Below are positions 2,780-58,265 of a stretch of 62,145 nucleotides of DNA, one piece after another. The notes beneath the pieces are model-generated. The model worked only from the letters and a program-made list of their open reading frames with translations, was not told the DNA's origin and did no database searches. The first letter of the stretch is position 1; every line of letters begins with the position of its first letter. Position numbers and translations under genes: made by a program. The stretch comes from a bacterium (lineage in GTDB: Bacteria > Patescibacteriota > Saccharimonadia > CAILAD01 > JADZBC01), in the NCBI GenBank assembly GCA_020852295.1, contig JADZBC010000015.1, forward strand, positions 1-62,145, in the 5' to 3' direction.

Positions 2780-4879
<2,100 letters not shown>

Positions 4880-26401: not shown

Positions 26402-26412
26402 GCACTAAGCGT

Positions 26413-28128: not shown

Positions 28129-28191
28129 GTTGCCCATTATATCAGCTAACAGGTTGGAGCCCAATTACCCAGAATCGGATATAATAAAGCC

Positions 28192-28650
28192 ATGAAAATC
28201 ATCGCTAAAAATAAACGAGCTCGCTATGACTACGAGGTAAAGGATATTTTGGTAGCTGGCATAGTGCTTAGCGGCGCCGAAGTGAAGAGCGTCAAGGCTG
28301 GGCATGCCTCGCTCAAGGGTAGCTTCGTGACGATTCGCGAATCTGAGGCCTACCTGACCAACGCTCATATCAACCCATACAAATTTGCCAGCAACCAAGC
28401 AAGCTATGATCCAACCCAATCGCGCAAACTGTTACTACACCGTAAACAGATCGATACCCTACTCGCACAGATCAAATCCGAAGGCATGACTGCAGTACCG
28501 CTTGCGATAGGTCTCGAACGCGGCTTAGTCAAAATCGAGATTGGCGTGGGGCGAGGTAAAAAACGTCACGACAAACGCGAAGTGATCAAAAAACGCGACA
28601 TGATTCGCGATGCAAATTTAGAGATCAAATCTGGAAAAAGGGCTAAATAA
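28192..28650 (+). CDS. smpB: SsrA-binding protein
   Basis: 152 aa. NKRARYDYEV...GIVLSGAEVKS...L..H, with a basic C-terminal tail typical of SmpB. Confidence 0.95.
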   Translation: MKIIAKNKRARYDYEVKDILVAGIVLSGAEVKSVKAGHASLKGSFVTIRESEAYLTNAHINPYKFASNQASYDPTQSRKLLLHRKQIDTLLAQIKSEGMTAVPLAIGLERGLVKIEIGVGRGKKRHDKREVIKKRDMIRDANLEIKSGKRAK

Positions 28651-28686
28651 TACATAAGTACTATGCTTTAGCATAGTACTTATGTA
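28651..28686. terminator. Bidirectional hairpin between convergent smpB and fba
   Basis: Perfect 16-bp stem TACATAAGTACTATGC / GCATAGTACTTATGTA with loop TTTA. Confidence 0.7.
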
Positions 28687-28746
28687 TATGGGGTATTGTT
28701 TGCCTCAAGGTAGGCTCAAAGCTGATGGCAAATATTTTGCGACCTG

Positions 28747-29613: not shown

Positions 29614-29696
29614 ACATCCTCCTAGTTCATAGTTTAGCGCACTCCTTATATATTGAGAAACGCACAAGTTATCCACAATTTTTTTGATTTCGACTG

Positions 29697-29725
29697 TTGA
29701 CAGGCATAATTCTACAGCTTATATT
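29697..29725 (+). promoter_or_regulatory. Sigma70-type promoter TTGACA-N17-TATATT
   Basis: Read directly from the plus strand. Lies in the divergent fba/surface-protein intergenic region. Confidence 0.55.
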
Positions 29726-29775
29726 GGATTCAGTGCTTGCACACATAAATTACTCAAAAACAAAAACACAATCTG

Positions 29776-29803
29776 AAAGAGGCCGGTTTTTACCGGCCTC
29801 TTT
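29776..29803. terminator. Orphan intrinsic-terminator-like hairpin
   Basis: AAAGAGGCCGG-TTTTTA-CCGGCCTCTTT with T-rich sequence on both sides. Not at the 3' end of any CDS. Confidence 0.55.
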
Positions 29804-29865
29804 CTATTGCAATTAATATTTTGAGGTATTACACTCTATTTAACGTAACAACTATAAAAACAAAA

Positions 29866-32523
29866 ATGAAAAAACCATATCCCAAATATCGACGAGTCCT
29901 GCCGCGAATCTTTGTATCAGTCTTGTTATTGCTGCAGTCTTTCGTCGGACTACTCACCCCGCAAGCCGCGCGTGCCGCAACAGCGCCCAGCGTTCCACAA
30001 AATTTTTATCACACTGTATCGGCTAGCTCCATCACCCTAAATTGGTCAACGCCGATCGACGACGGCGGATCTGCCATAACGGGCTACTACGCGCGCATTC
30101 GCGTCCATGGCGATAGCCTATGGAGTTCTTTGTGGGTACAGAGCAACTTATCCTCTCTTGAATTTGCCGGTCTAACGGCTAATGGCCACTACGACATCGC
30201 TATAGCGGCAATAAATGATATCGGAACGAGTGACGACAGCGTAATCAGCGACATTACTGTCGGTGCCGTTCCAGATGAAGTAGATGGATTCAGCTTCACC
30301 AATAACGGTTCGAGCCTCTATAGTAGCTGGGTTGCCCCCGCGAACCCTGGCTCGAGCGCGATAACCAGCTATGAGTTTGCATACTCATTAGCTGGCGAAA
30401 ATAACTGGGACACATATAGCTTGGCCGCGAATTCTACTTCAGCACAAATTAATGGCCTTTTAGCTGGACGATATGACATTCGTGTACGCGCCATAAATGA
30501 CTTTGGGGCTGGCGACTGGTCATATGTTTACGATCAGTATCTTGGTCCCTACTACTACAACATCACCAACTGCGAGCAGCTACAGGCAATGCAAAATAAA
30601 CTCGACGCCGCCTACAGTCTTGCCAACGACATCGATTGCACAGGGGTGAACTTTACCCCTATTGGCACATCTTCACAGCCATTCTTTGGCAGCCTCGAAG
30701 GCAACGGCCACACCATCTCCAATCTGTACGTTGAAGCGCAAATGGACTATGTCGGTCTATTTGGTGCAATCGACGCAGCCCACATTCAAAACGTAACAGT
30801 TAGTGGTGAAGTGAGCGGTGGCGCCTATACGGGCGGGTTGGCCGGTTGGGCCAATAACTTGGCGGTCATTGACAATGTGACGAGTCATGTAAATATCACT
30901 GGGGGCAGTAATTCTGGTGGGCTGATTGGCTACGCTGCGGGAATCAATAATGAGTACCCGCTCACAATCACCGAAAGCACCGCTACTGGTGAAGTACTTG
31001 GAGGTGACACTGCTGGTGGGCTCGTTGGTTACACGAACTCAGTCGTGGTTACCCGTAGCTCAGCTTCAGGAGCCATTTATTCAGTCGGTGATAATGCCGG
31101 CGGATTGATTGGGCACTCGTCAGGCTCTGAGATCACACAAAGCTTTGCTACTGGGAACGTCATCAGCGGCGCTACCCGCGCCGGCGGGCTCATCGGAGAG
31201 TCCGAGGGAGATGTGATATCCGATAGTTATGCCAGAGGCGACGCCACAACGCCAAACATCTATTATGCCGGCGGGCTCATCGGAGCGATGAACACCTCGC
31301 ACCTCAGTAGGGTGTATTCCACGGGTGTCGTAAATGGCTATGGCATAATTGGCGGTCTCGTGGGCTACAATGTCGGAGCATCGACTATTACCGACAGCTT
31401 TAGCGCAAGCTACGTACTGCCGAGCGATCCGGGCTGGGACGCAAGAGCCAACAATGGTCTGGTCGGTATCGATTACGCCCAAGAGATCACCTATTCGAAC
31501 GTGTTCTATAACACGATCAATAATGCAAATAACTGCACACGAGATGACAACTTCGAAATCGTTAGTTCGGCCGACTGTACCGGCATCAACCTGCAATACA
31601 ACGAAACGATGTTCAAAAAAGCCACTGACGAACCCATCAATGGCTGGGACATTGGCGGTATTTGGCATATCAACAACAACGATTTCCCTACCCTGTCGCC
31701 TAACACTGAGCCGCAGATCCTCTGTGAACAAGCTACTCGTACCGACACAAGCATCAGCATTCACTGTATGACAGAACCTGAGGGTTGGGGCCGAACTACC
31801 TGGGAAATGCAGTACAAGCGATCAGTCGATAGTAACTGGATTAATGTTGCACTTGCCGATATCACCGACGCTAAGGCCACCATTACGGGCCTCACTCCTG
31901 GTACCGAATATATGGTCCGCTTCCGCTTCACTAACGACTGGGGTACCGGCCAATGGGGCCGCATCGATGCCAAAACAAGTGGTGTCGCGCCGGTCGTAAC
32001 GGTTCCAACAGATCAAACGAACAGTTATATAGTTCAACTTACCAATGAAGTAGTCACCGCCGCTCAGCAGGAGTCGATAGATCTAAGTAACGACAAGCTA
32101 TTCTTGAGTGAATCTGGAAAGCAGCTCGATCTCAAACTCAATCAGGTGGTCTACTTTATGGTGAACGGTGAACGCCACAGCGCTACCGTCAAAGAGATTG
32201 GCGCCGACTACGTTATTCTCACGATCGCCTCTACACCTTTCGATGTACGTCTCTCCCTCAATTCTCCGCTAGACATCGACGTCGACAAGGATGGTAAGAA
32301 TGACATTACGATCCAGCTCCTCGCTACCACCAATGGCACCGCTACGCTCAATTTCAAGCAGCTTTCAGAAAAGATTAGTGCCCCTGTCGCCAGCAATGAC
32401 ACTATGATCGGCCAGATCAACAACACTCTGTTTTACCTCTTTATCCTCGGTGCAGTCAGCTTCGTACTCATGCTACTGATCCTTGGCCGTCTGCACGATC
32501 GCGACGACCGCATCACGGCCTAA
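29866..32523 (+). CDS. Large surface protein with FN3-like domains, GLUG-type Gly-rich repeats and a C-terminal TM anchor
   Basis: Start at MKKPYPKYRR with a signal-like segment. FN3-like segments (PSVPQNF...ITLNWSTPIDDGGSAITGY). Repeated GGLIG/GGLVGY motifs. C-terminal hydrophobic helix. Confidence 0.7.
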   Translation: MKKPYPKYRRVLPRIFVSVLLLLQSFVGLLTPQAARAATAPSVPQNFYHTVSASSITLNWSTPIDDGGSAITGYYARIRVHGDSLWSSLWVQSNLSSLEFAGLTANGHYDIAIAAINDIGTSDDSVISDITVGAVPDEVDGFSFTNNGSSLYSSWVAPANPGSSAITSYEFAYSLAGENNWDTYSLAANSTSAQINGLLAGRYDIRVRAINDFGAGDWSYVYDQYLGPYYYNITNCEQLQAMQNKLDAAYSLANDIDCTGVNFTPIGTSSQPFFGSLEGNGHTISNLYVEAQMDYVGLFGAIDAAHIQNVTVSGEVSGGAYTGGLAGWANNLAVIDNVTSHVNITGGSNSGGLIGYAAGINNEYPLTITESTATGEVLGGDTAGGLVGYTNSVVVTRSSASGAIYSVGDNAGGLIGHSSGSEITQSFATGNVISGATRAGGLIGESEGDVISDSYARGDATTPNIYYAGGLIGAMNTSHLSRVYSTGVVNGYGIIGGLVGYNVGASTITDSFSASYVLPSDPGWDARANNGLVGIDYAQEITYSNVFYNTINNANNCTRDDNFEIVSSADCTGINLQYNETMFKKATDEPINGWDIGGIWHINNNDFPTLSPNTEPQILCEQATRTDTSISIHCMTEPEGWGRTTWEMQYKRSVDSNWINVALADITDAKATITGLTPGTEYMVRFRFTNDWGTGQWGRIDAKTSGVAPVVTVPTDQTNSYIVQLTNEVVTAAQQESIDLSNDKLFLSESGKQLDLKLNQVVYFMVNGERHSATVKEIGADYVILTIASTPFDVRLSLNSPLDIDVDKDGKNDITIQLLATTNGTATLNFKQLSEKISAPVASNDTMIGQINNTLFYLFILGAVSFVLMLLILGRLHDRDDRITA

Positions 32524-33230
32524 AACAAATCAGCACTATAGCTCGTCGAGCGCTCTATCAGCCACTCTTTGGCCTCGAGGATATCTATCTCCATCTTAAA
32601 GCTGTCGAACTTCTTTGGCTTTTGATAGGCTTCTTCAAATGTCATCCACTGATTCCGTCCACCCTCAAATTGCTCTAGCAAATCCCCATTCGGCCGAGTG
32701 CCATGCGCAATGAAAAATATCTTGTCCTCAAGCATTTCGCCACTCTCTTCTGAGCTCACCTGCTCATGATAGACGCCCGCTATTCGCCAGTCGGCAGTCA
32801 GACCCGTTTCTTCTAATGCTTCGCGCTCAGCGGTCTGTATGATCGTCTCACCCCAACGTATTTTGCCGGAGGGTAGCCCCCAAAAGCCGTAGTAAGGATT
32901 CTTGAGCCGCTCTTGAAAAGCAAATTGCCGCTTCCCGCCATAAGTCCGCTCAATGCACAGAATGACCGCCGCCTTCGGCTGCCGCTCCACAGTATTGTTG
33001 TCAGTATCGAGCCGATTGGCATACTCCTTGCCGCGCTGTGTCAGACGATATTTACCACGGGCTTCTTTTTCGACCAGCTCCAGCTCGACTAATCGCGCGA
33101 TATGAAAGTTGAAATGATCACTACTCAAGCCAGTCGGACGCTGCAAAGTAGCAAAGCCCGCACTGGGGTGAAACAGTAGCTCGCGCAATATCGAGGTTTG
33201 CGCATCGTGTATTTTGATCTCCAGACTCAT
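32520..33230 (-). CDS. NUDIX hydrolase with N-terminal winged-helix domain
   Basis: 236 aa. Nudix box GKIRWGETIIQTAEREALEETGL. N-terminal MarR-like wHTH (HIARLVELELVEKEARGKYRLTQRG). Confidence 0.8.
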   Translation of the reverse strand: MSLEIKIHDAQTSILRELLFHPSAGFATLQRPTGLSSDHFNFHIARLVELELVEKEARGKYRLTQRGKEYANRLDTDNNTVERQPKAAVILCIERTYGGKRQFAFQERLKNPYYGFWGLPSGKIRWGETIIQTAEREALEETGLTADWRIAGVYHEQVSSEESGEMLEDKIFFIAHGTRPNGDLLEQFEGGRNQWMTFEEAYQKPKKFDSFKMEIDILEAKEWLIERSTSYSADLF

Positions 33231-33373
33231 GATTGTCTCCTTATTGATTGTAGTTATCAGATAAGGACGCGTCCACCGTAACTGTAAACAAGTCTAGAGT
33301 TTAGTTCTAGTAAAGTATGCTTCACCTTTTCGCTAGTCATACAACCCAAAAGCCCTAGGTTTGGGCGTAACTA

Positions 33374-33703
33374 CTACAGGATGTCGAGTGATTCACCAAC
33401 CTGATTAGCTAAATGGGCGATTTTTTCAGCCGCCTCGAGATTGTCGCCGTTGGCCATATGCGCATGTAGCTGATCGTTATCGCGGACTATTAGTACGAAA
33501 TGGGTTCCGACGAGATCGTAAAAGTCGATGATAGCAATGGCGATACTATCTTTCGCTGAGAGGATGATGATCTGCTGGTCGCAAAGCTTGCGTACCTCCT
33601 CAGCCGTCCGCTGCATAGTAAGCTCATCTTCTTTTGTACCATCGTGAATGAAGATGATAGCCGGACCCGGCTGGTCTTTAATCTTAGTAAAATCGAGTGC
33701 CAT
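33374..33703 (-). CDS. Hypothetical protein (109 aa, low GC)
   Basis: Only the low-GC C-terminal part of the 224-aa track ORF looks real; start at MALDFTKIKDQ. The upstream part of that ORF is an off-frame read into high-GC DNA. Confidence 0.45.
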   Translation of the reverse strand: MALDFTKIKDQPGPAIIFIHDGTKEDELTMQRTAEEVRKLCDQQIIILSAKDSIAIAIIDFYDLVGTHFVLIVRDNDQLHAHMANGDNLEAAEKIAHLANQVGESLDIL

Positions 33704-33751
33704 ACAGACATTATACACAATGATGTGGCGAGGTATTTTAGTACAAATGCG

Positions 33752-33813
33752 AAAGGCCCTGGAATATCCAGGGCCCGTGGGGCCGGGAGTCCATGCTCCC
33801 AGCCCCGCCTCTT
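33752..33813 (-). repeat. Conserved 3'-UTR module, copy A
   Basis: Shares the blocks AAGAGGCGGGGC, ATGGACT and GGGCCCTGGA.AT.TCCAGGGC.TTT (minus-strand reading) with 35941-36010. Confidence 0.7.
33755..33775 (-). terminator. CCWGG-stem hairpin after the 191-aa gene
   Basis: GGCCCTGGA-ATA-TCCAGGGCC, followed by TTT on the minus strand. Confidence 0.55.
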
Positions 33814-33821
33814 GGTGGTGA

Positions 33822-34397
33822 TCAGCCCTCGGCCGCGACCTCCGGGTCGGAGGGCGTGTGGTCGTTCGGGTTCTCGTTGGGCAGGTACTTCCAGCCCGGG
33901 CGACGCGCCTTGCAGGCCTCGATGGCCGGCTTGGCCGCCGCGGCGCGGAGCTCGATGTAGCGGTCCACGATCTCGCAGAACCATCGCCAATCGGACTCCT
34001 GACGGCCGCCGGACACACCGCCCTCGTAGCCGCGGTACTCGCCGGCACCCTCGAAGGGGAAGTCGCCCGGCTCGACCAGATCAGGGCGCGTCAGCGCCTC
34101 GACCGAGTTGCGGCCGGTCCGCAGGTAGAAGCGGATCTTGCCGACGACGTTCATCAGCAGCCCCTCCGGGCCGGTGAACTTGTCGCTCTCCTCGCCGGAG
34201 ATGAGGCCCAGCTCGACCGCGGCCAGGATCTTCTCCGCCGGGTCATCCCAGCTGAGGCCATGGCCCTGCTTCAGGATGATGCAGGCCAGGTCGGTGTCCT
34301 CACCGTAGTTGGTACGGATCAACGGCACCTTCACGTCGAGGAACCAGACGTACATCTGGTCCGAGATGTCGATGCCGAAGCGGTTGTCTGCGGGCAT
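33822..34397 (-). CDS. Hypothetical protein (191 aa, high GC)
   Basis: Balanced amino-acid composition, unlike the overlapping Arg/Ala/Pro-rich antisense ORFs. SD AAGGAGGG 5 nt upstream of the ATG. Own consensus promoter. No family recognised. Confidence 0.6.
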   Translation of the reverse strand: MPADNRFGIDISDQMYVWFLDVKVPLIRTNYGEDTDLACIILKQGHGLSWDDPAEKILAAVELGLISGEESDKFTGPEGLLMNVVGKIRFYLRTGRNSVEALTRPDLVEPGDFPFEGAGEYRGYEGGVSGGRQESDWRWFCEIVDRYIELRAAAAKPAIEACKARRPGWKYLPNENPNDHTPSDPEVAAEG

Positions 34398-34454
34398 GAC
34401 GCCCTCCTTGTTGTCGTAGCGGGGTCACCGCCACCCCACCATAGGGGTCATAGC

Positions 34455-34483
34455 ATAATACTATATTTGTTATGTTTTGTCAA
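34455..34483 (-). promoter_or_regulatory. Near-consensus promoter TTGACA-N17-TATTAT driving the 191-aa high-GC gene
   Basis: Plus strand shows ataata at 34455-34460 and tgtcaa at 34478-34483, within an AT-rich spacer inside the island. Confidence 0.6.
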
Positions 34484-34497
34484 TATATGTAAGTATC

Positions 34498-34519
34498 AAA
34501 AAACCAGGGATAAACCTGG
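34498..34519 (-). terminator. Intrinsic terminator (CCWGG-stem hairpin + T6)
   Basis: Minus strand reads CCAGGTTTATCCCTGGTTTTTT. Confidence 0.65.
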
Positions 34520-34542
34520 CAGTGCAAATAATCTAAGTTGGA

Positions 34543-34556
34543 GACAGTTGTAGGAC
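34543..34556. repeat. Inverted repeat arm IR2-L (GACAGTTGTAGGAC)
   Basis: Perfect reverse complement of 35408-35421. Confidence 0.9.
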
Positions 34557-34563
34557 TCCGTAA

Positions 34564-34591
34564 GGAGGGCGGGGCCGAAGCCCCGCCCTCC
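34564..34591 (-). terminator. GC-rich 3' hairpin (11-bp stem) after the 232-aa gene
   Basis: GGAGGGCGGGG-CCGAAG-CCCCGCCCTCC. No U-tract, so possibly a stabiliser rather than a terminator. Confidence 0.5.
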
Positions 34592-34629
34592 TCCGGGGTG
34601 TGGGTGAACTCTGGAGGGGCTGCTCGCCG

Positions 34630-35328
34630 TCAGGCGCTCGTGGTCGGCGCGCCCTGGTCCACGTCGGAACGCGGCGACAGGTGCTCGTCGCCCATCGAAC
34701 CCTCGGCGGAAGCCGCCGACTCGTCGGTCCACCAGGGCGTCTGGCCCTGGCGCTCGGCCTCGCGGGCCATGCCCTCGTCGAACATCACGGCGAGCCGGTC
34801 GTTCTGCTCGGTGATGAACCGATCGAGGTCGCGCACCAGGTCCTGGTACTTCTCCGTCGCCGTCGTGAGCGCGAGGCGCTCGACGGCGATGAAGTCGTCG
34901 AGCATGGTGTCGTGGTGCGCGTCCGGGTTCTGCTCGTGCCAGAGCACGTGCTTGGCGTTGACCCGTGCCTGCGCCGTGGCCACGTCGGCCTTGGCGTGGT
35001 GGATGGCCACCTCGCGCTGGCTGACCATGGCGGCCAGCCGCTCGACCTCGGCGGAGTGCTCGAGGACCCAGGGCTGGATGGCGCTGGGCGGGGCCGAACG
35101 GATGGCGTCCTCGTAGATCGCCCGGCGGAGCCGGTCGAGACCGGGGCCCTCGACGCCGATGGTGGCGTCGATGACGATGGCGCCGTCGAGCAGGTCACCG
35201 AAGTCGCGCTTGATCATCTCCCGGAGCTGTGGCGGCAGATCGGCGAGCATGTCGTCGATCGAGCCGAAGCCCAGGGTGGTGTCGGTGGTGCTGGTGCTGC
35301 GGCCGCGCAGCAGGTCGAAGAGGTTCAT
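34630..35328 (-). CDS. Hypothetical protein (232 aa, high GC)
   Basis: Start at MNLFDLLRGR, preceded by GAGAAAGAGAGG. Helical, acidic protein with no family recognised. The overlapping 291-aa plus-strand ORF looks like an off-frame artefact. Confidence 0.6.
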   Translation of the reverse strand: MNLFDLLRGRSTSTTDTTLGFGSIDDMLADLPPQLREMIKRDFGDLLDGAIVIDATIGVEGPGLDRLRRAIYEDAIRSAPPSAIQPWVLEHSAEVERLAAMVSQREVAIHHAKADVATAQARVNAKHVLWHEQNPDAHHDTMLDDFIAVERLALTTATEKYQDLVRDLDRFITEQNDRLAVMFDEGMAREAERQGQTPWWTDESAASAEGSMGDEHLSPRSDVDQGAPTTSA

Positions 35329-35407
35329 GGGGAACCTACCTCTCTTTCTCCCCTCGTGGGGAGACAAATTAGAACTGTTTCTAAGCTGTCTTCCCAGAAG
35401 GGAGAGT

Positions 35408-35421
35408 GTCCTACAACTGTC
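35408..35421. repeat. Inverted repeat arm IR2-R (GTCCTACAACTGTC)
   Basis: Perfect reverse complement of 34543-34556. Lies in the predicted 5' UTR of the 232-aa gene. Confidence 0.9.
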
Positions 35422-35456
35422 AAAAAACACAGCCTCAAAAAAAGCTGCGAATTCCT

Positions 35457-35484
35457 ATGCTACCACAACTACTAAAAAAGTCAA
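35457..35484 (-). promoter_or_regulatory. Promoter TTGACT-N16-TAGCAT for the 232-aa gene
   Basis: Plus strand shows atgcta at 35457-35462 and agtcaa at 35479-35484. Confidence 0.45.
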
Positions 35485-35490
35485 TACATA

Positions 35491-35539
35491 CGAAAACACC
35501 CCGCCGGCCCGAAGGCCGACGGTTGGTCGGTGTTTTCGG
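35491..35539 (-). terminator. Long GC-rich hairpin + T-run after the 95-aa gene
   Basis: Minus strand reads CCGAAAACACCGACCAACCGTCGGCCTTCGGGCCGGCGGGGTGTTTTCG. Confidence 0.6.
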
Positions 35540-35561
35540 ACTGACGGGGCAGTTGGGTGAC

Positions 35562-35849
35562 TCAGGAAGCTGTCTGGAGCCGGGCTGGCGCCAGATAGAG
35601 TCCGTAACCCCCTTCGGGTAGTGGGTGGCAGTAGAGCCAGCCCACCTGGAGTGCCCGCTGCAGGCCACGTAGCACGCGACCCTTGGTGGTGTGCATGTCA
35701 GCGGCCATCTGTTCGATGGTCTGCCAACCGGCCACCCCACTGCCGGAGATGTAGTCGATCACATCCTGGCAGTCGTGGGCGCGCAACAATTCATGCCAGC
35801 GCGACAGCAGCCACAGCAGTGGCAGCGCCCCCAATATGATGAGTACCAT
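35562..35849 (-). CDS. Small protein with N-terminal TM helix and wHTH-like C-terminal part (95 aa, high GC)
   Basis: MVLIILGALPLLWLL, then IEQMAADMHTTKGRVLRGLQRALQVGWLY. Weak family evidence. Confidence 0.45.
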   Translation of the reverse strand: MVLIILGALPLLWLLSRWHELLRAHDCQDVIDYISGSGVAGWQTIEQMAADMHTTKGRVLRGLQRALQVGWLYCHPLPEGGYGLYLAPARLQTAS

Positions 35850-35940
35850 GCTTTCCCCCAGCTACTCATGTGTGCAGCCCCGATCTGGAGCTTGGCATCA
35901 AAATACCACGATCACACAAAAAAACAAGTATAAATATTAC

Positions 35941-36010
35941 AAAAGCCCTGGATATCTCCAGGGCCCAGGGGCTGATGGATCCTATTGCAGTCCATCACGC
36001 CCCGCCTCTT
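35941..36010 (-). repeat. Conserved 3'-UTR module, copy B
   Basis: See 33752-33813. Includes the terminator hairpin GCCCTGGA-TATC-TCCAGGGC (35945-35964) followed by TTTT on the minus strand. Confidence 0.7.
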
Positions 36011-36015
36011 ATGCT

Positions 36016-36996
36016 CTACTCCTTGGTCTCCTTCTCTACGGTGCCGACGTTGTGGCCGTCGTAGCGGATCTGGACCCGCCCTTCGTCACGACCGGCGTTG
36101 ACCGCTCGGATCCAGGCGTCTCGCATGGCCCGTTCGGCCTCATCGGTTGGAAGATGCTCGAAGTCACGCGGCGAGATCGGGTCGCAGACCACCGCCAGCA
36201 CCACCCGCCGCCAAGGCAGGAATCCTGGTCGGATGATCGGATCGTCCTGCGAGACCCCCACGATGGCGATGGGCAGCAGCGGCACGCCGGTACGACGCGA
36301 CACCCGGATGGCTCCGAGGAAGCCGCCCTCCACCGTACTGGAACCCTTGCGGGTACCTTCGATGAAGAACTCGGCACTGAAGCCCTGGTTGATCCGTCGC
36401 TCCACCTCGATGAGGGCCTCCTCGGGCTTGTACGAGCGCATCTGGAGACGATGGATCTTGTCCAGCCGGTTGTGCTTCGGGTGGTAGCGGCCGTCCAGCT
36501 GGGGTCGGAACATCGGGAAAGCCCCGTTGATCAGGCACCAGTTGGCCAACCAGCGCGGTCCGCTGACGAACCACGGCTTGCAGGTCCACACCAGCGGTCG
36601 TCGGAACGACCCCGTGATGAGGATGTCCCGCTCATCGGCGTGCGTTGGCGCCACGATGATCGGCCGCTGACCGCGGTTGTCGATCGGTGCCTTGGTGCCT
36701 CGCAGGTAGAAGCGGGAGTACTGCTTGAGTCCCCCGGGCACCTTCTGCTTGTCGATGAAGACGCGCTTCACCAGCAGGCTGCCGATCAGCAGGATGAATC
36801 CCCGAAAGAAGGGGTACTCCCACCAGCTGCCGCGACCAGTCGCCCGGCGCAGGAACTTGCGTCGCTGGGCGTCCTCCTCGTCGGTGAGGAGCCAGGGCAC
36901 GATGTCACCCTTCTCGAAGTCCTCGTCGGTGACGACGGTGCCATCCGGCAACGTGTACTTCCGAGGCTCCATCACTGGCTTCATTGGTGCTGTCAT
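36016..36996 (-). CDS. Lysophospholipid/1-acyl-sn-glycerol-3-phosphate acyltransferase family protein (PlsC-like)
   Basis: 326 aa, high GC. HX4D catalytic motif (APTHADERD), FIEGTR block, TM segment FFRGFILLIGSLLV. Confidence 0.78.
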   Translation of the reverse strand: MTAPMKPVMEPRKYTLPDGTVVTDEDFEKGDIVPWLLTDEEDAQRRKFLRRATGRGSWWEYPFFRGFILLIGSLLVKRVFIDKQKVPGGLKQYSRFYLRGTKAPIDNRGQRPIIVAPTHADERDILITGSFRRPLVWTCKPWFVSGPRWLANWCLINGAFPMFRPQLDGRYHPKHNRLDKIHRLQMRSYKPEEALIEVERRINQGFSAEFFIEGTRKGSSTVEGGFLGAIRVSRRTGVPLLPIAIVGVSQDDPIIRPGFLPWRRVVLAVVCDPISPRDFEHLPTDEAERAMRDAWIRAVNAGRDEGRVQIRYDGHNVGTVEKETKE

Positions 36997-37065
36997 GTCT
37001 CCCCCTTGGGATCTGGCCGATTACTCGGCGTACTTCTGGAATAGAATGTGAGGTTCGTGGGTGCA

Positions 37066-37093
37066 ATTGTAACAGATTTTAGCATTTTTTCAA
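37066..37093 (-). promoter_or_regulatory. Promoter TTGAAA-N16-(TGT)TACAAT for the acyltransferase gene
   Basis: Plus strand shows attgtaaca at 37066-37074 and tttcaa at 37088-37093, in AT-rich DNA at the island edge. Confidence 0.5.
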
Positions 37094-37159
37094 GATCTTT
37101 ACTGATCTAGAGCAAGTTTTTTGGTAAAATGATCATTACCACTTTGGAGAAAAATTCAT

Positions 37160-38176
37160 TTGCTCGTAAAAAAATCGATTAAAAATAAGCTATTTGACAC
37201 CGATCATCTTGGAAAGACCCTCGTTCTCGGGATCCTGTTCATTATTTTCTTGAGTGTCGGGGTAAGCATCACCGCCTACGAATTGACGCGATCACACAAC
37301 AAACTTGGTCCGGCTGATGCCGCACCGCCACTCTCCAATAGCTACAAAATCGTGGCAGCGGGAGATCTAGTGTGCAACGAAATTGACGAGGGATACAACG
37401 GGGGTCGCGGTAGTGAGACCACCTGTCAGATGGAGGCGACGTCAAATATTGCCCTTGGTCTGCAGCCCGACGCCGTTCTGCTGCTCGGCGATCTGCAGTA
37501 CTACTATGGAGAGTATGACTACTTTGAGCGTGTTTACGACAAATCCTGGGGGCGACTCAAATCCATATCCTACCCCACTCCAGGTAACCACGAGTATGGC
37601 AGCCCAAACGCTGAAGGCTATTTCAAATATTTTGATGCCGCTGCCGGCGACCCACAAAAAGGCTACTATCGCTTCACCAAAGGTCAGTGGCAGATCTATA
37701 GCATCAACTCCAACTGCCAATACATCGGCGGCTGCCAAAAAGGCTCACTACAGTACAACTGGCTCAAGGCCGAGCTCGAAGCGAATCCAAGCAAATGCAC
37801 GCTCGCCTATTGGCACCACCCGCTGTTCTCATCGGGTTATCACGGCAATAACACCTTTATGCGCGACATCTGGCAACTTCTCGAAGAGCACAATACTGAG
37901 CTCGTACTCGCCGGACATGATCATCTGTACGAACGCTTCGATCCCCAAACCAGCCGGGGCAAGCTAGATGAGGAGAATGGGATCCGCCAGATTACAGTCG
38001 GAACCGGTGGAAAAAGCTTGTTCAGATTGCAACGTACACTCAAAAATAGCTTGGTGCGAGACGATAGCAACTTCGGTGTTCTCGAGCTCAACCTCAGCGA
38101 CATCGATTACTCATGGCGATACGTGGTGACCGGCGACCAGCCGCCAGCCGACAGCGGCTACGCGCTCTGTAAATAA
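37160..38176 (+). CDS. Secreted/membrane-anchored metallophosphoesterase (calcineurin-like)
   Basis: TTG start 9 nt after GGAGA. N-terminal TM helix. Motifs AAGDLVC, LGDLQY, GNHEY, WHHP, GHDHLYER. Confidence 0.8.
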   Translation: MLVKKSIKNKLFDTDHLGKTLVLGILFIIFLSVGVSITAYELTRSHNKLGPADAAPPLSNSYKIVAAGDLVCNEIDEGYNGGRGSETTCQMEATSNIALGLQPDAVLLLGDLQYYYGEYDYFERVYDKSWGRLKSISYPTPGNHEYGSPNAEGYFKYFDAAAGDPQKGYYRFTKGQWQIYSINSNCQYIGGCQKGSLQYNWLKAELEANPSKCTLAYWHHPLFSSGYHGNNTFMRDIWQLLEEHNTELVLAGHDHLYERFDPQTSRGKLDEENGIRQITVGTGGKSLFRLQRTLKNSLVRDDSNFGVLELNLSDIDYSWRYVVTGDQPPADSGYALCK

Positions 38177-38400
38177 CAAAAAACCAGACATTTAACCTGG
38201 CTTTTTGATGTTGTAATAATTACATTGGTGGAGCGAGTACGAAATAGTTGGCACAACCTGGCAGCTGAATCAGGGCATTGGAAGGAATTATCGAGTTATT
38301 ACTAATCGGACTGTTAACCAGAATTGATAGTGATAGAGATTAGTACGATATATCCGATTTAGATATGAGTAGTATAATTCTACTTAGAGGATTAAATATC

Positions 38401-39098
38401 ATGCCTAACAAACGTAAAATAGACGCAAAAAGCAAGAAAAAGTTACAGGCCATTAGAAAAGGCTATAAGAAAAAATAGGCACTGACCCTTCCGAGAGTAC
38501 CCTTGAGAAACTCAGTATCAAAGAACTCAACAGATACTATAAAATTGGCATAAAACGTAAAACCTGGATAATAGGTCTGGCTTTACTGTTGCTAGTTCTC
38601 GGAGTAGGCGGATACGTCTTTGCTGCACAAAATATATTCACTTCTGATAATCCGCCAATCAGTAGTGATACTCCAGATAAAACGAGTAAAATACCACTAC
38701 AATCAAAACCCTCTACTGGGTCCCCAAAAAATAGCAATGCGAATAGCGCCTATACCCCTGGAGTCTGCACCAAGACTGTTATCCCTTCAAAAACAATCTA
38801 CAAGGATGACCCCCAAGTAAACGAAGGAACTACTTATCTAGCTGTAACAGGACGAGATGGGTATAAGGAGACTTGCACTGCTGACTCAACTGGATATGTT
38901 ATACCTCCTAGTACTGTACCAGCTATCGATTATGTATATGTTCGCGGTACGAAGAAAGCAACACCAGCACCCTCCAACACACCAAGATATTCATATGCTG
39001 AGGTTATGGCTATTGCACAAAATCAATGCGCACAATATAGCGGTTCTAGTGCATACAACCAGTGCATTAATGCCGTTCTAAGGCAGTATGGATACTAA
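38401..39098 (+). pseudogene. Membrane-anchored secreted protein (G5-like domain) interrupted by a frameshift at an A6 tract
   Basis: TATAAT (38373-38378), AGAGGA SD and the ATG at 38401 open a 25-codon ORF that stops at 38476. The domain-bearing frame is open from 38469 to 39098 but has no ATG or SD before the TM helix. The frames differ by -1 at AAAAAA (38470-38475). Confidence 0.5.
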
Positions 39099-39148
39099 TC
39101 ACTTAGCTTGTAACAAAAAAGAACTTCATCAATCCCGAAGTTCCCTTA

Positions 39149-39536
39149 TGGTGGAGCTGCCGGGAATCGCACCCGGGTCCATCAGACCGTTCAGATAGCC
39201 AACTACAAGCTTAGTTTGCTTGGTATTTGTTTGAAAAGATCACGAGGCTTTAAGCAAACCAAAAACTCCGTGCGCTTTCCCTAGAGAGTCTTAGTGCTTT
39301 GCCCTAGGCAGCAAAACAAGCAATCAGATGTATTGACGCCCTCACCTATATCTGATGTCTAGATGAATGGACGGCATTCGAATTTAAGCGAATGCTGGTG
39401 CAAAAGTAGGCATGGCAAAAGCCGCGCGTACTTTGCTAGCAAGTGATTTTACACTTATTTGGGTTGGACAGCTAACGTGTATCCAGCCGGCTTGCGTCTA
39501 TCTGTCAAGTTACCGATGTCGAAGCTAAACAGCCCC
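39149..39536 (-). ncRNA. ssrA: tmRNA (transfer-messenger RNA)
   Basis: Minus strand starts GGGGCTGTTTAGCTTCGACATCGG and ends GGACCCGGGTGCGATTCCCGGCAGCTCCACCA (T-arm, acceptor stem, encoded CCA). An internal frame ending GCA TTC GCT TAA gives a candidate tag. smpB is present in the window. Confidence 0.9.
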
Positions 39537-39619
39537 AAGAGCCCTACTATAGCATATTTCGAGGCTAAATTCTAGATTGGACTTGGCAGCACATCTGCTT
39601 TACTGCCATAATAGGTCCA

Positions 39620-40639
39620 ATGAACAAGTTGCGCATCAATATCATCTCCGAAACGGTATTTTCTGTCCGAGGCCATGGTGTCCATACTGCCTATATGGAA
39701 AACCTCCTTTCCCTCAAGAAGCGAGATGATGTGATCGTCACGACCAATGTGCGCCGCCCAGCCGATGTTATTCATATCCATACGATTGGCCCATACAGCT
39801 TGCGCTTCTTGCTCTTTGGCGAAGCCAAGCTAAAATTCGTCTCTGCCCATGTCGTTCCCGACTCCTTTGTCGGAAGCCTGGTGGGTGCCCGCTACTGGAA
39901 ACCACTCTCGGCACTGTATCTGCGCTGGTTTTACAACCGAGCCGATGGCGTCTTTGCGGTCAGCTCAGAAGTAGTAACTGAGCTCAAAAAACTCGGCGTC
40001 AAAAAACCAGTCTATCTGGTACCCAACACGATCGACACGACACCCTACCGCGTCACGCCAGCTCAAAAACAACAGATACGCAAAAAAATTGGTATACCAA
40101 AAGATAAGTTCGTCATCGTAGCCAGCGGCCAGGTACAACCCCGCAAGCGCGTCGATAGCTTTATCGCAGCTGCCAAGGCACTGCCCGACATGGACTTCAT
40201 CTGGATCGGCGGTATTCCCTTCAAGGGCGTCGCTGCCAATCACCGCGCCATGCAGCGCGTCATGGATAACCATCCTAAAAACGTGCGCTTCACCGGCGTG
40301 ATCGAACATGACGATGTCGTACCCTACTACCAAGCAGCCGATATGTTCTTCCTACCTTCCATGCAAGAAACTTTTGGTATCGTTATCGTCGAGGGTGCGG
40401 CCGCTGGCCTTCCTGTCATGTTGCGAGACAATACACAGTACCGGGTCACTTTTGAGGACTGGTACCTGAGGGGATCAGATGATACATTCGTCAAAATCAT
40501 CAAGTCACTCGCACGCGACAAGACTGAATACAAAAAGTGGCAAGCGGCTGCCGCCCACATCGCCAGCAAATACGACGCCAGTGCCGGAGCCCAACAGATT
40601 GTAGATATCTACAAAACAGCGCTAGGAAACACCAAATGA
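39620..40639 (+). CDS. Glycosyltransferase family 4 (GT-B, group 1)
   Basis: 339 aa. C-terminal GT1 motif FFLPSMQETFGIVIVEGAAAGLPV. Confidence 0.85.
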   Translation: MNKLRINIISETVFSVRGHGVHTAYMENLLSLKKRDDVIVTTNVRRPADVIHIHTIGPYSLRFLLFGEAKLKFVSAHVVPDSFVGSLVGARYWKPLSALYLRWFYNRADGVFAVSSEVVTELKKLGVKKPVYLVPNTIDTTPYRVTPAQKQQIRKKIGIPKDKFVIVASGQVQPRKRVDSFIAAAKALPDMDFIWIGGIPFKGVAANHRAMQRVMDNHPKNVRFTGVIEHDDVVPYYQAADMFFLPSMQETFGIVIVEGAAAGLPVMLRDNTQYRVTFEDWYLRGSDDTFVKIIKSLARDKTEYKKWQAAAAHIASKYDASAGAQQIVDIYKTALGNTK

Positions 40640-58257: not shown

Positions 58258-58265
58258 ACATAGCA

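What the first reader, a model, noticed from the sequence alone, without database searches (positions are those of the whole stretch)
33745..37095. Second high-GC island: four genes, each individually rewired with AT-rich near-consensus promoters and host-style terminators
Four minus-strand ORFs are about 65-70% GC (41/60 hand-counted at 34861-34920): a 326-aa acyltransferase, a 95-aa TM+wHTH-like protein, and 232-aa and 191-aa unknowns. They are embedded between low-GC genes. They are not arranged as an operon. Instead they are separated by short AT-rich spacers carrying sigma70-type promoters: TTGACA-N17-TATTAT at 34455-34483, TTGACT-N16-TAGCAT at 35457-35484, and TTGAAA-N16-TGTTACAAT at 37066-37093. 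The spacers also supply strong SDs (AAGGAGGG, GAGAAAGAGAGG) and terminators, some of the same CCWGG-stem type used by housekeeping genes of this genome. This fine-scale GC mosaic (foreign-looking coding sequence with native-looking expression signals) argues for domesticated horizontally acquired genes rather than a recent block insertion or contamination. Together with the WhiB-like island it points to a high-GC, probably actinobacterial, donor. No mobility genes are present.
Basis: partly seen in the sequence, partly recalled or inferred. Interest (0 to 1): 0.75.

Follow-up and report, generated by a model that had tools for sequence, protein, structure and literature searches.

The report
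GC-rich orphan gene cassettes in Saccharimonadia
Four unusually GC-rich genes, each with its own promoter and terminator, form a strain-variable accessory locus in a tiny parasitic (Saccharimonadia/CPR) bacterium; their only relatives are in that same group, and they have stayed GC-rich far longer than a "recently imported actinobacterial DNA" story allows.

Summary
Window 33750-37050 is 58-70% GC against 48.6 +/- 3.2% elsewhere. It carries four real minus-strand genes (A 326 aa, B 95 aa, C 232 aa, D 191 aa; GC3 0.75-0.95). Each has a sigma70-like promoter, a structured leader, a Shine-Dalgarno site and a hairpin terminator. Independent assemblies reproduce every GC junction, so it is not a chimera.

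No homologue was found in Actinobacteria, phages, plasmids or viral contigs. The few relatives (4 for A, 2 for C, 9 for D) all lie in Saccharimonadia MAGs.

A syntenic relative (L003) has the same A-B-C-D array beside the tmRNA gene and is equally GC-rich, although neutral sites between the two genomes are saturated. D-family genes exceed their genome's GC in six other Saccharimonadia genomes. So the high GC is old and maintained or replenished, not a fresh transfer scar.

Spacers are conserved as well as or better than coding sequence, with compensatory hairpin changes. Strains about 97% identical differ by a whole single-gene cassette and by a swapped C allele.

Best reading: a hotspot of moron-like accessory cassettes encoding fast-evolving orphan proteins. 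The ultimate donor and the force keeping GC high remain unknown.

The parts
37066..37093 (-). Promoter of gene A (TTGAAA-N16-TGnTACAAT)
   Evidence: The same promoter sits directly after the tmRNA terminator in L003 and L007.
36016..36996 (-). Gene A, 326 aa: divergent membrane LPLAT/PlsC-type acyltransferase with one hydrophobic segment at residues 63-81. GC 0.64, GC3 0.84.
   Evidence: PF01553 22.9 bits (cut-off 23). TIGR00530 weak hit. PDB 5kym PlsC E=2e-4. Invariant H119-x4-D124 and E213-G-T-R216. Hydropathy. Strain differences by codon position 2/1/14.
35939..36003 (-). 3' tail of A: conserved GC hairpin (36003-35968) followed by a CCWGG-stem terminator (35966-35943) and a U-tract
   Evidence: Fold -40.5 kcal/mol, z=-4.9. 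26-nt block identical in L003. One compensatory C:G to U:A pair. A similar tail follows D.
35900..35927 (-). Weak promoter-like site of gene B (TTGTTT-N16-TGnTATTTT)
   Evidence: Below the scan threshold, but conserved in sequence and spacing in L003. Inferred.
35562..35849 (-). Gene B, 95 aa: N-terminal hydrophobic anchor plus a possible winged-helix region. GC3 0.75.
   Evidence: Homologue in L003 at 5699-5974 with 32% identity. No profile hit. Strain differences by codon position 5/1/8.
35501..35522 (-). Terminator of B (9-bp stem, 8 GC pairs, T-run)
   Evidence: Conserved in L003.
35457..35484 (-). Promoter of gene C (TTGACT-N16-TGnTAGCAT)
   Evidence: Position conserved in L003, where it reads TTGACG-N17-TAATAT.
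35347..35449 (-). Structured 5' leader of C. It comprises a 5'-proximal hairpin plus U-run (35449-35428), the left arm of the inverted repeat (35421-35408), and a long hairpin (35405-35347) whose 3' arm holds the purine-rich SD region.
   Evidence: z=-3.6 in the window, -4.9 in L003. Same fold in L003 with changed apical stem.
34630..35328 (-). Gene C, 232 aa: orphan protein with a conserved N-terminal ~50 residues, a long helical hairpin (86-133/148-193) and disordered ends. GC3 0.95. Codons ~51 to stop are replaced by a divergent allele in ~97%-identical strains.
   Evidence: only 2 family members in the databases.. Allele swap at 34607-35177.
34503..34593 (-). 3' tail of C: 14-bp GC hairpin with UUCG loop (34593-34562), right arm of the inverted repeat (34556-34543), and a CCAGG/CCTGG terminator plus U7 (34520-34503)
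   Evidence: Three compensatory pair changes in the UUCG hairpin in L003. The last pair of the inverted repeat covaries, GGAC/GTCC to GGAT/ATCC.
34455..34483 (-). Promoter of gene D (TTGACA-N17-TATTAT, 11/12)
   Evidence: TTGACAAAAC block conserved in L003.
33822..34397 (-). Gene D, 191 aa: soluble Saccharimonadia-restricted family with a tentative GlcG/HbpS/DUF336-like fold. GC3 0.93.
   Evidence: Model pLDDT 81.6. The top 14 PDB fold hits are all DUF336-type proteins, but weak: best probabilities 0.97-0.99, falling to 0.4-0.6 lower in the list, TM 0.33-0.52, E about 0.03 at best. No sequence-profile support.
33754..33806 (-). 3' tail of D: GC hairpin (33806-33779) followed by a GGCCCTGG...CCAGGGCC terminator (33776-33754). 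This is the low-coordinate edge of the island.
   Evidence: z=-4.85.

Best explanation
The region is a long-established, strain-variable accessory locus of a Saccharimonadia (CPR/Patescibacteria) chromosome. Ancestrally it lay directly downstream of the 3' end of the tmRNA gene.

It is built from self-contained single-gene expression cassettes. Each has a sigma70-type promoter, a structured leader, an SD, a GC-rich ORF, a GC hairpin and a U-tract terminator. This is the architecture described for phage 'morons', but here it sits in a cellular chromosome with no phage genes.

The ORFs are fast-evolving, lineage-restricted proteins:
- A: a divergent membrane LPLAT acyltransferase.
- B: a small membrane-anchored putative DNA-binding protein.
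- C: a helical-hairpin protein with a constant N-terminus and a replaceable remainder.
- D: a soluble protein with a tentative GlcG/HbpS-like fold.

The array A-B-C-D, together with its spacers, has been inherited at least since the common ancestor of the window lineage and the L003 lineage. It is reshuffled among close strains by recombination, seen as cassette gain or loss at terminator T-tails and as allele replacement inside C.

The extreme GC3 is therefore not the fading scar of one transfer. It is a persistent state, kept by a non-neutral force (selection on composition or mRNA structure, or GC-biased conversion at a recombination hotspot) or by continual exchange with a GC-rich gene pool.

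Shown: the anatomy, the restriction to Saccharimonadia, the synteny, the persistence of GC, the conserved spacers and the strain variation. Inferred: the functions, the force that maintains GC, and the ultimate origin.
For: Anatomy:
- Promoters and terminators.
- Folds with z of -3.6 to -4.9.
- Long spacers (118-233 nt) against the tightly packed housekeeping genes.

Real genes under purifying selection: third-position excess of strain differences.

Restriction:
- A has 4 relatives, C has 2, D has 9.
- The D profile finds 5 of 185,579 species genomes. Four are titled Saccharimonadia/Saccharibacteria MAGs and one is titled Parcubacteria.
- Nothing in phages, plasmids, IMG/VR, PHROGs or PADLOC.

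Synteny: L003 has A (65%), B (44% over a partial tblastn match; 32% over the full alignment), C (~28%) and D (53%) in the same order. The array lies between the tmRNA gene and NUDIX. L007 has tmRNA followed by A.

Persistence of GC:
- Housekeeping 4-fold sites are 0.29-0.42 identical against 0.25-0.28 expected at random.
- Island GC4 is 0.75-0.96 in the window and 0.56-0.89 in L003, against 0.42-0.66 for housekeeping genes.
- D is GC-rich relative to background in L001, L003, L016, L018 and L019.
- A is GC-rich in L007 and L012.
- Both C alleles have GC3 0.95-0.97.

Spacers: identity is 0.67-0.74 against 0.53-0.70 for CDS, with compensatory changes in hairpins.

Strain variation:
- A 114-aa cassette is present in six assemblies and absent in the window.
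- C232 and C192/193 alleles assort independently of that cassette.
- Many contigs break inside the island.

Not a chimera: every junction is seen in independent ENA, JGI, NCBI and Logan assemblies.
Against: - Only one divergent syntenic island (L003) is available. Vertical inheritance of the whole array is therefore inferred from one comparison, not from a phylogeny.
- GC1 and GC2 are also raised, which is what long residence in a GC-rich genome would produce.
- The companion island carries a WhiB domain typical of Actinobacteria and their phages.
- In two higher-GC Saccharimonadia genomes (L015, L017) D matches its background and shares a context, PriA-PRT-D-SecDF. An origin there, followed by spread, is a live alternative.
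- The direction-of-substitution test was inconclusive: 18 GC>AT against 9 AT>GC at third positions, and polarisation errors could explain this.
- No expression data exist. The promoters are consensus matches only.
- No function is demonstrated for any of the four proteins.
Confidence: 0.55

Rival explanations
1. The four genes were acquired from a high-GC actinobacterial host or its phage and then domesticated one by one with native promoters and terminators. The donors are simply unsampled, or the proteins have diverged beyond recognition.
For: - GC3 of 0.93-0.97 (C, D) is at the level of ~70% GC genomes. GC1 and GC2 are also raised.
- The other island has a WhiB domain 65% identical to mycobacteriophage WhiB.
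- Cultivated Saccharibacteria live on Actinobacteria. Phages linked to both partners are reported (PMC10746230; PMC13578794), which gives a route.
- ORFans in general are thought to come from phage gene pools (own knowledge).
Against: - No actinobacterial or phage homologue appeared in any search, although Actinobacteria and actinophages are heavily sampled.
- Synonymous sites should ameliorate faster than proteins diverge beyond recognition. Here GC3 is nearly untouched while the proteins are orphans.
- The island is equally GC-rich in L003 across saturated neutral divergence.
- Allele replacement in C must have come from relatives carrying the same leader and 3' spacer.
Confidence: 0.2
2. 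This model proposes transfer within the class. The families are native to higher-GC Saccharimonadia (58-62% GC lineages such as L005, L006 and L015). They spread repeatedly into ~44-53% GC lineages, for example by natural transformation. The GC excess is incomplete amelioration after several recent imports.
For: - D matches its background and shares a PriA-PRT-D-SecDF context in L015 and L017. It sits in different contexts, always as a single gene, in the lower-GC genomes.
- The D tree is star-like, and the window copy is almost as close to L015 (51%) as to syntenic L003 (53%).
- The GC offset is never negative.
Against: - GC3 of C and D (0.93-0.97) exceeds that of typical genes in the 62% GC genome (0.67-0.81).
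- A, B and C have no homologue in those high-GC genomes.
- The window and L003 islands share order, position and spacer sequences. This argues for one ancestral array, not separate imports.
Confidence: 0.2
3. This model treats the region as an assembly or binning artefact. High-GC fragments from a co-occurring actinobacterium would have been stitched into a Saccharimonadia contig.
For: Sharp GC steps at 33750 and 37050. Metagenomic contigs often break inside the island.
Against: - Every low-GC/high-GC junction recurs in independent assemblies from different projects: L003 (JGI), L007 (NCBI), L008-L014 and L021-L025 (ENA, Logan).
- The GC steps coincide with gene boundaries that carry conserved promoters and terminators.
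- The contig breaks are explained by strain-level variants.
Confidence: 0.02

Closest known systems
Phage 'morons' (Hendrix/Juhala concept; criteria as restated in PMC2920897)
   Same: - Single genes with their own promoter and terminator.
- GC content unlike the neighbours.
- Inserted between genes that are adjacent in a related genome. The 114-aa cassette lies between A and B in six assemblies and is absent in the window.
- Different cassettes appear at the same hotspot.
   Different: - The carrier is a cellular chromosome with no phage genes nearby, and there is no PHROG hit.
- The cassettes are GC-richer, not AT-richer, than the carrier.
- The array and its spacers are conserved across a divergence that saturates neutral sites. 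They are old residents rather than recent additions.
Genomic islets or islands integrated at the 3' end of ssrA (tmRNA) or tRNA genes
   Same: In L003 and L007 the array starts right after the tmRNA terminator. Content varies between strains.
   Different: No integrase was found. No direct repeat of the tmRNA 3' end was found at the far border. The region is only ~3.3 kb.
ORFan / recently acquired genes in bacteria (short, fast-evolving, usually A+T-rich relative to the genome; own knowledge, Daubin and Ochman 2004)
   Same: Short, taxonomically restricted, fast-evolving. Proteins are 29-66% identical where the neighbours are 64-92% identical.
   Different: The compositional sign is reversed, with GC3 up to 0.97 in a 49.6% GC genome. 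The deviation does not decay.
LPLAT/PlsC 1-acyl-sn-glycerol-3-phosphate acyltransferases (PF01553; PDB 5kym)
   Same: Gene A has the HX4D and EGTR motifs and a membrane segment. It has weak profile and PDB matches.
   Different: It scores just under the Pfam gathering score and far under the TIGR00530 cut-off. It has a ~110-residue N-terminal extension. Only 4 relatives are known.
GlcG/HbpS/EfgA/PduO-C 'DUF336' ligand-binding proteins (PF03928)
   Same: The top 14 PDB fold matches of the D model all belong to this fold. D has a GGVSG-type glycine motif. The link between that motif and the family rests on my own recall.
   Different: TM is only 0.33-0.52 and E is about 0.03 at best. Neither Pfam nor a PDB sequence profile recognises D.
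mRNAs whose 5' and 3' UTRs pair (S. aureus icaR, B. subtilis hbs; own knowledge)
   Same: Gene C is bracketed by a 14-nt perfect inverted repeat lying in its leader and its 3' UTR. It is conserved with one covarying pair in L003.
   Different: The pairing is untested. It does not cover the SD. A DNA-level role, as an operator pair or recombination site, is not excluded.

Membership tests
LPLAT/PlsC acyltransferase (PF01553) | Catalytic HX4D motif (motif I) | tested here: met
   H119-A-D-E-R-D124 is invariant in all 4 family members.
LPLAT/PlsC acyltransferase (PF01553) | Motif III (F/Y)xEGTR | tested here: met
   F211-I-E213-G-T-R216 is invariant. This segment is the part that aligns to PlsC 5kym and to TIGR00530.
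LPLAT/PlsC acyltransferase (PF01553) | Profile score at or above the curated threshold | tested here: inconclusive
   PF01553 scores 22.9 bits against a cut-off of 23.0. TIGR00530 scores 24.9 against 102.95. One homologue, P0015, carries a precomputed PF01553 hit.
Gene horizontally acquired from Actinobacteria | Closest homologues, or an enclosing clade, in Actinobacteria or actinophages | tested here: not met
   No such homologue for A, C or D. B was not searched in the large databases.
Gene horizontally acquired from Actinobacteria | Composition like the donor and unlike the recipient | tested here: met
   GC3 is 0.75-0.95 against 0.31-0.61. Similarity to a particular donor's codon usage was not tested.
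Gene horizontally acquired from Actinobacteria | Patchy presence among close relatives, with the compositional deviation decaying over time | tested here: not met
   The array is present and equally GC-rich in syntenic L003 despite saturated 4-fold sites.
Phage moron | Own promoter and terminator | tested here: met
   These are consensus and conservation evidence only. There is no transcript data.
Phage moron | GC content different from flanking genes | tested here: met
Phage moron | Sits between genes that are adjacent in a related genome | tested here: met
   This was shown for the 114-aa cassette (L014, L021-L025 against the window). It was also shown for window 38235-39148. For A-D themselves no island-free relative was available.
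Phage moron | Resides in a phage or prophage genome | tested here: not met
   Neighbours are tmRNA, glycosyltransferases, NUDIX, FBA, SmpB and ArgRS. There are no PHROG hits and no viral contig.
Integron gene cassette | Integron integrase gene, attC recombination sites and promoterless cassettes | tested here: not met
   No integrase-like ORF lies in or near the region. Each cassette has its own promoter. The shared 3' tails of A and D are terminator hairpins and were not shown to be attC.
ssrA-targeted integrative island | Location at the 3' end of the tmRNA gene | tested here: met
   Directly adjacent in L003 and L007. About 2 kb away in the window because two further genes intervene.
ssrA-targeted integrative island | Tyrosine integrase and a direct repeat of the ssrA 3' end at the distal border | tested here: not met
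   No integrase was found. The longest repeat of the tmRNA 3' region within 32000-39090 is 10 nt (E=0.82), and it lies at 38174-38183, outside the island.
GlcG/HbpS/DUF336 (PF03928) | Fold similarity to solved members | tested here: inconclusive
   The top 14 Foldseek PDB hits are DUF336-type proteins. Best probabilities are 0.97-0.99, falling to 0.4-0.6 lower in the list. TM is 0.33-0.52 and E is 0.03-0.6.
GlcG/HbpS/DUF336 (PF03928) | Sequence-profile match | tested here: not met
   No Pfam hit for any of 9 members at E<=5. The PDB profile search found nothing relevant.
Mobile insertion cassette / MITE-like element (gene C) | Terminal inverted repeats | tested here: met
   A 14-nt perfect inverted repeat at 35421-35408 and 34556-34543.
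Mobile insertion cassette / MITE-like element (gene C) | Target-site duplication and additional copies elsewhere | tested here: not met
   The flanks are TTTTTT and TCCAAC, with no duplication. No other copy occurs in the 62 kb window. The position is the same in L003. The swapped segment lies inside the repeats.
Winged helix-turn-helix regulator (gene B) | Match to an HTH/wHTH profile or fold | tested here: not met
No Pfam, NCBIfam, PHROG or PADLOC hit at E<=0.1. No structure was predicted.

The most novel reading that the evidence does not exclude
A defined class of monocistronic, lineage-restricted genes in Saccharimonadia is actively held at an actinobacterial-like composition (GC3 about 0.9 or more) inside ~45-53% GC genomes. 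These are epibionts of high-GC Actinobacteria. The holding force would not be genome-wide mutation bias. It could be selection tied to the epibiotic lifestyle, such as a gene pool shared with host-range phages, or mRNA stability. It could also be strong GC-biased conversion at recombination hotspots. On this reading the GC-rich ORFans mark the organism's fast-evolving host- or phage-interaction genes.
Probability: 0.3. Interest if true: 0.8.

Novelty: new variant of a known kind. Interest (0 to 1): 0.55.

Why it matters
Compositional outliers are routinely read as recent horizontal transfer and used to name donors. Here that reading fails its own test. The outlier genes have no relatives outside Saccharimonadia. 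They are syntenic in a relative whose neutral sites are saturated, and they remain at GC3 0.9 or above.

If this is general, CPR epibionts would carry a recognisable class of GC-rich, autonomously expressed, rapidly evolving orphan genes at recombination hotspots. GC-rich Pfam-less single genes were also seen in four other Saccharimonadia loci.

That would give a simple sequence signature for finding candidate host- or phage-interaction genes in organisms where more than half the genes are unannotated. It would also offer a clean natural system for asking what, other than mutation bias, sets local GC content in bacteria.

Saccharibacteria are now genetically tractable (PMC10633639; listed, not read), so deletion and reporter tests are feasible in related cultivated strains.

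Tried and rejected
1. Actinobacterial or phage donor. Protein searches, the genome scan (39), phage and plasmid tblastn, IMG/VR (80-82), PHROGs, PADLOC and BFVD fold search gave no non-Saccharimonadia relative.

2. Alternative-strand ORFs as the real genes. Rejected by the codon-position pattern of strain differences, by GC3>GC1>GC2 in the minus frames, and by conserved homologues.

3. Chimeric assembly. Rejected by recurrence of the junctions in independent assemblies.

4. Integrase-mediated island at ssrA. No integrase and no att repeat.

5. Gene C as a TIR-bounded mobile cassette. No target duplication, no other copies, and a fixed position.

6. Known RNA families in the leaders and tails. 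Nothing at gathering score. The permissive search gave only sub-threshold chance-level hits.

7. 5'/3' UTR pairing for A, B and D. Duplex energies were no better than shuffles. Only C stands out, with 9 of 300 shuffles as good.

8. Function of C from structure. The model has pLDDT 63.6, and fold hits are generic coiled coils, with PspA/Vipp1 best at E=0.65. This was uninformative.

9. Direction of substitutions among near-identical haplotypes, as a test of decay against maintenance. The counts were 18 GC>AT and 9 AT>GC at third positions. That is too few sites, and polarisation by majority rule could itself produce the excess. Inconclusive.

10. The JGI metagenome scan with the A profile returned only the L003 contig again. 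No further divergent islands were obtained.

It was rerun with permitted rows.

Full report
**1. What is in the sequence**

The window is 49.7% GC. It carries ordinary bacterial housekeeping genes: gyrB/gyrA, PheST, TrpS, ArgRS, SmpB, and the tmRNA gene at 39149-39536. RNase P RNA lies at 58265-58629.

Two stretches stand out in a 1-kb GC profile, 19-21 kb and 34-37 kb. At 100-nt resolution the second rises from 0.41 to 0.71 at about 33750 and falls back at about 37050. It has three internal troughs, at about 34450-34550, 35400-35500 and 35850-36000. 500-nt windows inside are 0.58-0.70. The rest of the window has mean 0.486, sd 0.032 and maximum 0.556.

| Gene | Coordinates | Length | GC3 |
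|---|---|---|---|
| A | 36016-36996 | 326 aa | 0.84 |
| B | 35562-35849 | 95 aa | 0.75 |
| C | 34630-35328 | 232 aa | 0.95 |
| D | 33822-34397 | 191 aa | 0.93 |

All other genes have GC3 of 0.31-0.61.

High-GC DNA opens long ORFs on both strands, so the frame had to be tested. Two lines of evidence settle it.
- In strains 96-99% identical at the DNA level, differences fall mainly on codon position 3 of the minus-strand frames (A 2/1/14, B 5/1/8, D 1/2/9).
- The proteins have conserved homologues.

The minus-strand genes are therefore real and under purifying selection.

**2. Expression signals**

It found 5 promoter-like sites in the region against 1.5 +/- 1.3 in shuffles. It found 10 terminator-like sites against 3.2 +/- 2.1.

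B has a weaker TTGTTT-N16-TGnTATTTT site at 35927-35900. It is conserved in a divergent relative.

Each gene is followed by a GC-rich hairpin and then, for A, C and D, a second hairpin with a U-tract. The folds have z-scores of -3.75 to -4.9.

A CCAGG...CCTGG-stem terminator also serves the L20 gene junction at 54262-54286. The terminator style is therefore native to this genome.

One correction is needed. The spacers as a whole are 0.50-0.55 GC because of these hairpins. Only the promoter and T-tract cores are AT-rich.

The organisation is nevertheless unusual for this genome. Most genes overlap or are less than 50 nt apart, whereas the island genes are separated by 118-233 nt.

**3. Whose genes are these?**

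The three larger proteins are near-orphans.
- In 5.8 billion clustered proteins, A has 4 relatives, C has 2 and D has 9.
- A full HMMER pass over 1.84 billion representatives found only C itself and one other.
- The D profile matched 5 of 185,579 species genomes. Four are titled Saccharimonadia/Saccharibacteria MAGs and one is titled Parcubacteria. One database hit is named Candidatus Saccharimonas.
- There were no matches in 50,697 phage records, 72,556 plasmids, IMG/VR, PHROGs, PADLOC or BFVD.
- The JGI metagenome scan with the A profile returned only one contig.

The assignment of the window itself to Saccharimonadia is an inference. It rests on these relatives and on synteny with their contigs.

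**4. A syntenic relative**

Contig L003 (JGI 3300012956, 39.9 kb, 49.6% GC) is collinear with the window from the glycosyltransferases to the UvrD-like helicase. Housekeeping proteins are 59-88% identical by tblastn and 64-92% in global alignments.

Between its tmRNA gene and NUDIX gene it has the same array.
- A is 65% identical.
- B is 44% identical over a partial tblastn match and 32% over the full alignment. It is an ORF at L003 5699-5974 that the gene caller missed.
- C is about 28% identical.
- D is 53% identical.

A, C and D are again GC-rich (GC3 0.83-0.94).

In L003 and in L007 (NCBI GCA_052034495.1), A's promoter follows the tmRNA terminator directly. In the window two further genes (37160-39098) intervene. 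One of them, within 38235-39148, is missing from otherwise 97%-identical strains.

**5. The high GC is old**

At 4-fold degenerate sites of conserved residues, housekeeping orthologues of the window and L003 are 0.29-0.42 identical. Random expectation from composition is 0.25-0.28. Neutral sites are therefore close to saturation. A Jukes-Cantor conversion gives roughly 1.1-2.2 substitutions per site (my calculation).

The island genes are no less diverged: observed minus random identity is 0.08-0.12, against 0.04-0.16 for housekeeping genes.

Yet GC at these sites is 0.75-0.96 in the window copy and 0.56-0.89 in the L003 copy. For housekeeping genes it is 0.42-0.66.

In a two-state model, a compositional excess decays roughly as exp(-d). 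An initial excess of about 0.4 should then have shrunk to about 0.05-0.13. C and D retain 0.3-0.4. This is a rough calculation of mine, not a fitted model.

The same pattern recurs across the class.

| Locus | D-gene GC | Genome background GC |
|---|---|---|
| L019 | 0.59 | 0.44 |
| L018 | 0.61 | 0.467 |
| L016 | 0.64 | 0.52 |
| L001 | 0.66 | 0.53 |
| L015 | 0.66 | 0.62 |
| L017 | 0.56 | 0.546 |

In L015 and L017 the D gene is near its background. A-family genes are 0.59-0.61 GC in contigs of 0.51-0.55.

The offset is never negative.

**6. The spacers are conserved with the genes**

In a global alignment of the two islands, spacer identity is 0.67-0.74. CDS identity is 0.53-0.70.

There are long perfect blocks. 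One is 26 nt in the hairpin after A. Another is TTTTTTGACAGTTGTAGGA in the C leader. There are also conserved promoter hexamers.

Several hairpins keep their structure through compensatory changes:
- one pair in the A tail;
- three pairs in the UUCG hairpin after C;
- a re-made apical stem in the C leader.

The expression signals are therefore as old as the array. The data do not reveal a separate rewiring event.

In more distant genomes D is always a single gene with its own promoter-like site and hairpin terminator. Those flanks are unrelated in sequence.

**7. The locus is a recombination hotspot among close strains**

Contigs L008-L011 match the window at 96.6-97.9% from 24628 to 34606. 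They lose all similarity across 34607-35177 (codons ~51 to stop of C) and resume at 91-92% in 35178-35445. They encode a 192-aa C allele. It has the same first ~33 residues, is 43% identical overall, and has GC3 0.97.

Six assemblies (L014, L021-L025) carry an extra ~500-bp unit between A and B. The unit has a promoter-like site, GAAGGAGGG, a 114-aa hydrophobic-plus-HTH-like ORF and a terminator. The window lacks it. The indel is bounded by TTTTGTA at two terminator tails.

The cassette and the two C alleles occur in different combinations. L021 and L025 have the cassette with C232. L024 has the cassette with C193. The window has no cassette and has C232.

Downstream of D, the window has a 109-aa gene of ordinary GC. 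L003 has an unrelated, opposite-strand, GC-rich 104-aa gene in that position.

Many metagenomic contigs end inside the island. That is expected at such a polymorphic site. The same data exclude a chimeric assembly, because each junction is seen repeatedly in independent assemblies.

**8. What the proteins may do (inferred)**

- **A** has the HX4D (H119...D124) and EGTR (213-216) motifs of lysophospholipid/glycerolipid acyltransferases. It has one hydrophobic segment (63-81), a PF01553 hit 0.1 bit under threshold, and a weak match to PlsC 5kym. A lipid-remodelling role would fit organisms thought to scavenge lipids. That last point is my own knowledge and was not tested.
- **B** has an N-terminal hydrophobic anchor. 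The wHTH reading has no profile support.
- **C** is predicted, at low overall confidence (pLDDT 63.6, 80-97 in the core), to form a long helical hairpin with disordered ends. Fold matches are generic.
- **D** gives a confident model (pLDDT 81.6). Its top 14 PDB neighbours all belong to the GlcG/HbpS/EfgA/PduO-C DUF336 fold. The scores are weak (TM 0.33-0.52, E 0.03-0.6) and there is no sequence-profile support.

Nothing shows that the four act together. D and A occur alone elsewhere.

**9. Explanation and rivals**

The best-supported reading is an old, strain-variable hotspot of moron-like accessory cassettes beside ssrA. It encodes fast-evolving Saccharimonadia-restricted proteins whose GC-richness is maintained or replenished (confidence 0.55).

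The actinobacterial-donor model (0.2) keeps three points in its favour. These are the composition, the WhiB domain of the other island (PF02467 E=1e-22; 65% identical to mycobacteriophage WhiB) and the reported phage links between Saccharibacteria and Actinobacteria (PMC10746230, PMC13578794). It has no homology support. It also cannot explain an untouched GC3 in proteins that have diverged beyond recognition.

Spread from higher-GC Saccharimonadia (0.2) fits D's distribution and star-like tree. It does not fit GC3 values above those of such genomes. It also does not fit the shared spacers of the window and L003.

An attempt to see whether current substitutions favour GC was inconclusive. The counts were 18 GC>AT and 9 AT>GC third-position singletons among haplotypes.

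**10. Comparison with known systems, and novelty**

The cassettes meet three of the four moron criteria quoted in PMC2920897. They have their own transcription signals, deviant GC, and insertion between genes adjacent in a relative. They are not in a phage.

They are not integron cassettes, because there is no integrase and each has its own promoter. They are not a classical ssrA island, because there is no integrase and no att repeat.

They invert the usual rule that ORFans and acquired genes are A+T-rich (own knowledge).

I found no paper describing GC-rich orphan cassettes in Saccharibacteria in four literature searches. This is absence within the held library only.

I rate the finding a new variant of a known kind, with interest 0.55. 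The anatomy is ordinary for an accessory islet. The persistence of an extreme GC3 in lineage-restricted genes of a CPR epibiont is unexpected and testable.

Noticed in passing
window 35408-35421 and 34543-34556: A perfect 14-nt inverted repeat (GACAGTTGTAGGAC / GTCCTACAACTGTC) brackets gene C, lying in its 5' leader and its 3' UTR. It occurs nowhere else in the window. It is conserved in L003 with a covarying terminal pair (GGAT/ATCC). It could be 5'-3' mRNA pairing, an RNase III site or a paired operator.
   Followed up: partly
window ~35932-35944; L014 1519-2017; L021 ~4135-4633: A ~500-bp single-gene cassette is present between A and B in six other assemblies of ~97%-identical strains and absent in the window. 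It carries a 114-aa hydrophobic-plus-HTH-like ORF with GC3 0.65, its own promoter-like site, an SD and a terminator. The indel is bounded by TTTTGTA at terminator tails.
   Followed up: yes
window 34607-35177 (gene C codons ~51 to stop): This segment is replaced by a divergent allele (192/193 aa, 43% identical overall, GC3 0.97) in strains that are 96.6-97.9% identical on the low-coordinate side and 91-92% identical upstream. The N-terminal ~33 residues are nearly invariant.
   Followed up: yes
window 19454-20815: The other GC-rich island encodes a 453-aa fusion of a WhiB domain (PF02467, E=1e-22; 65% identical to mycobacteriophage WhiB) with a MarR-like wHTH and a C-terminal coiled coil. It recurs in the same context in at least four independent assemblies. 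WhiB is regarded as specific to Actinobacteria and actinophages (own knowledge).
   Followed up: partly
window 38235-39148: The stretch holding the 169-aa low-GC (43%) gene with a weak G5-domain hit lies between the phosphoesterase gene and the tmRNA gene. It is absent from L021 and L022, which have 157 nt there. This is a further strain-variable insertion at the ssrA hotspot.
   Followed up: partly
window 33701-33719 (upstream of the 109-aa gene 33374-33703): TGTGTATAAT (an extended -10) ends 7 nt before the ATG, with no SD. The gene may be translated from a leaderless mRNA. L003 has an unrelated, opposite-strand, GC-rich 104-aa gene at this position.
   Followed up: no
L001 3980-4543, 6176-6409, 13011-13739; L016 7004-7501, 13009-13557; L018 10855-12248; L012 1032-3566: Other Saccharimonadia contigs carry scattered single ORFs 7-15 GC points above their background. 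Nearly all lack Pfam hits; one has weak sigma-70 r2/r4 hits. The GC-rich-orphan pattern may be general in the class.
   Followed up: partly
window 39537-40536: A 1-kb stretch with only short ORFs (122 and 80 aa) lies where L003 and L021 have an intact 338/339-aa GT4 glycosyltransferase. It may be a decayed gene in the window lineage.
   Followed up: no
window 35968-36003 and 33779-33806: The hairpins immediately after the stop codons of A and D share AAGAGGCGGGGC...TGGACT...CCCC sequence and are followed by near-identical GGCCCTGG...CCAGGGC terminators. This suggests duplication of a 3' module between cassettes.
   Followed up: partly
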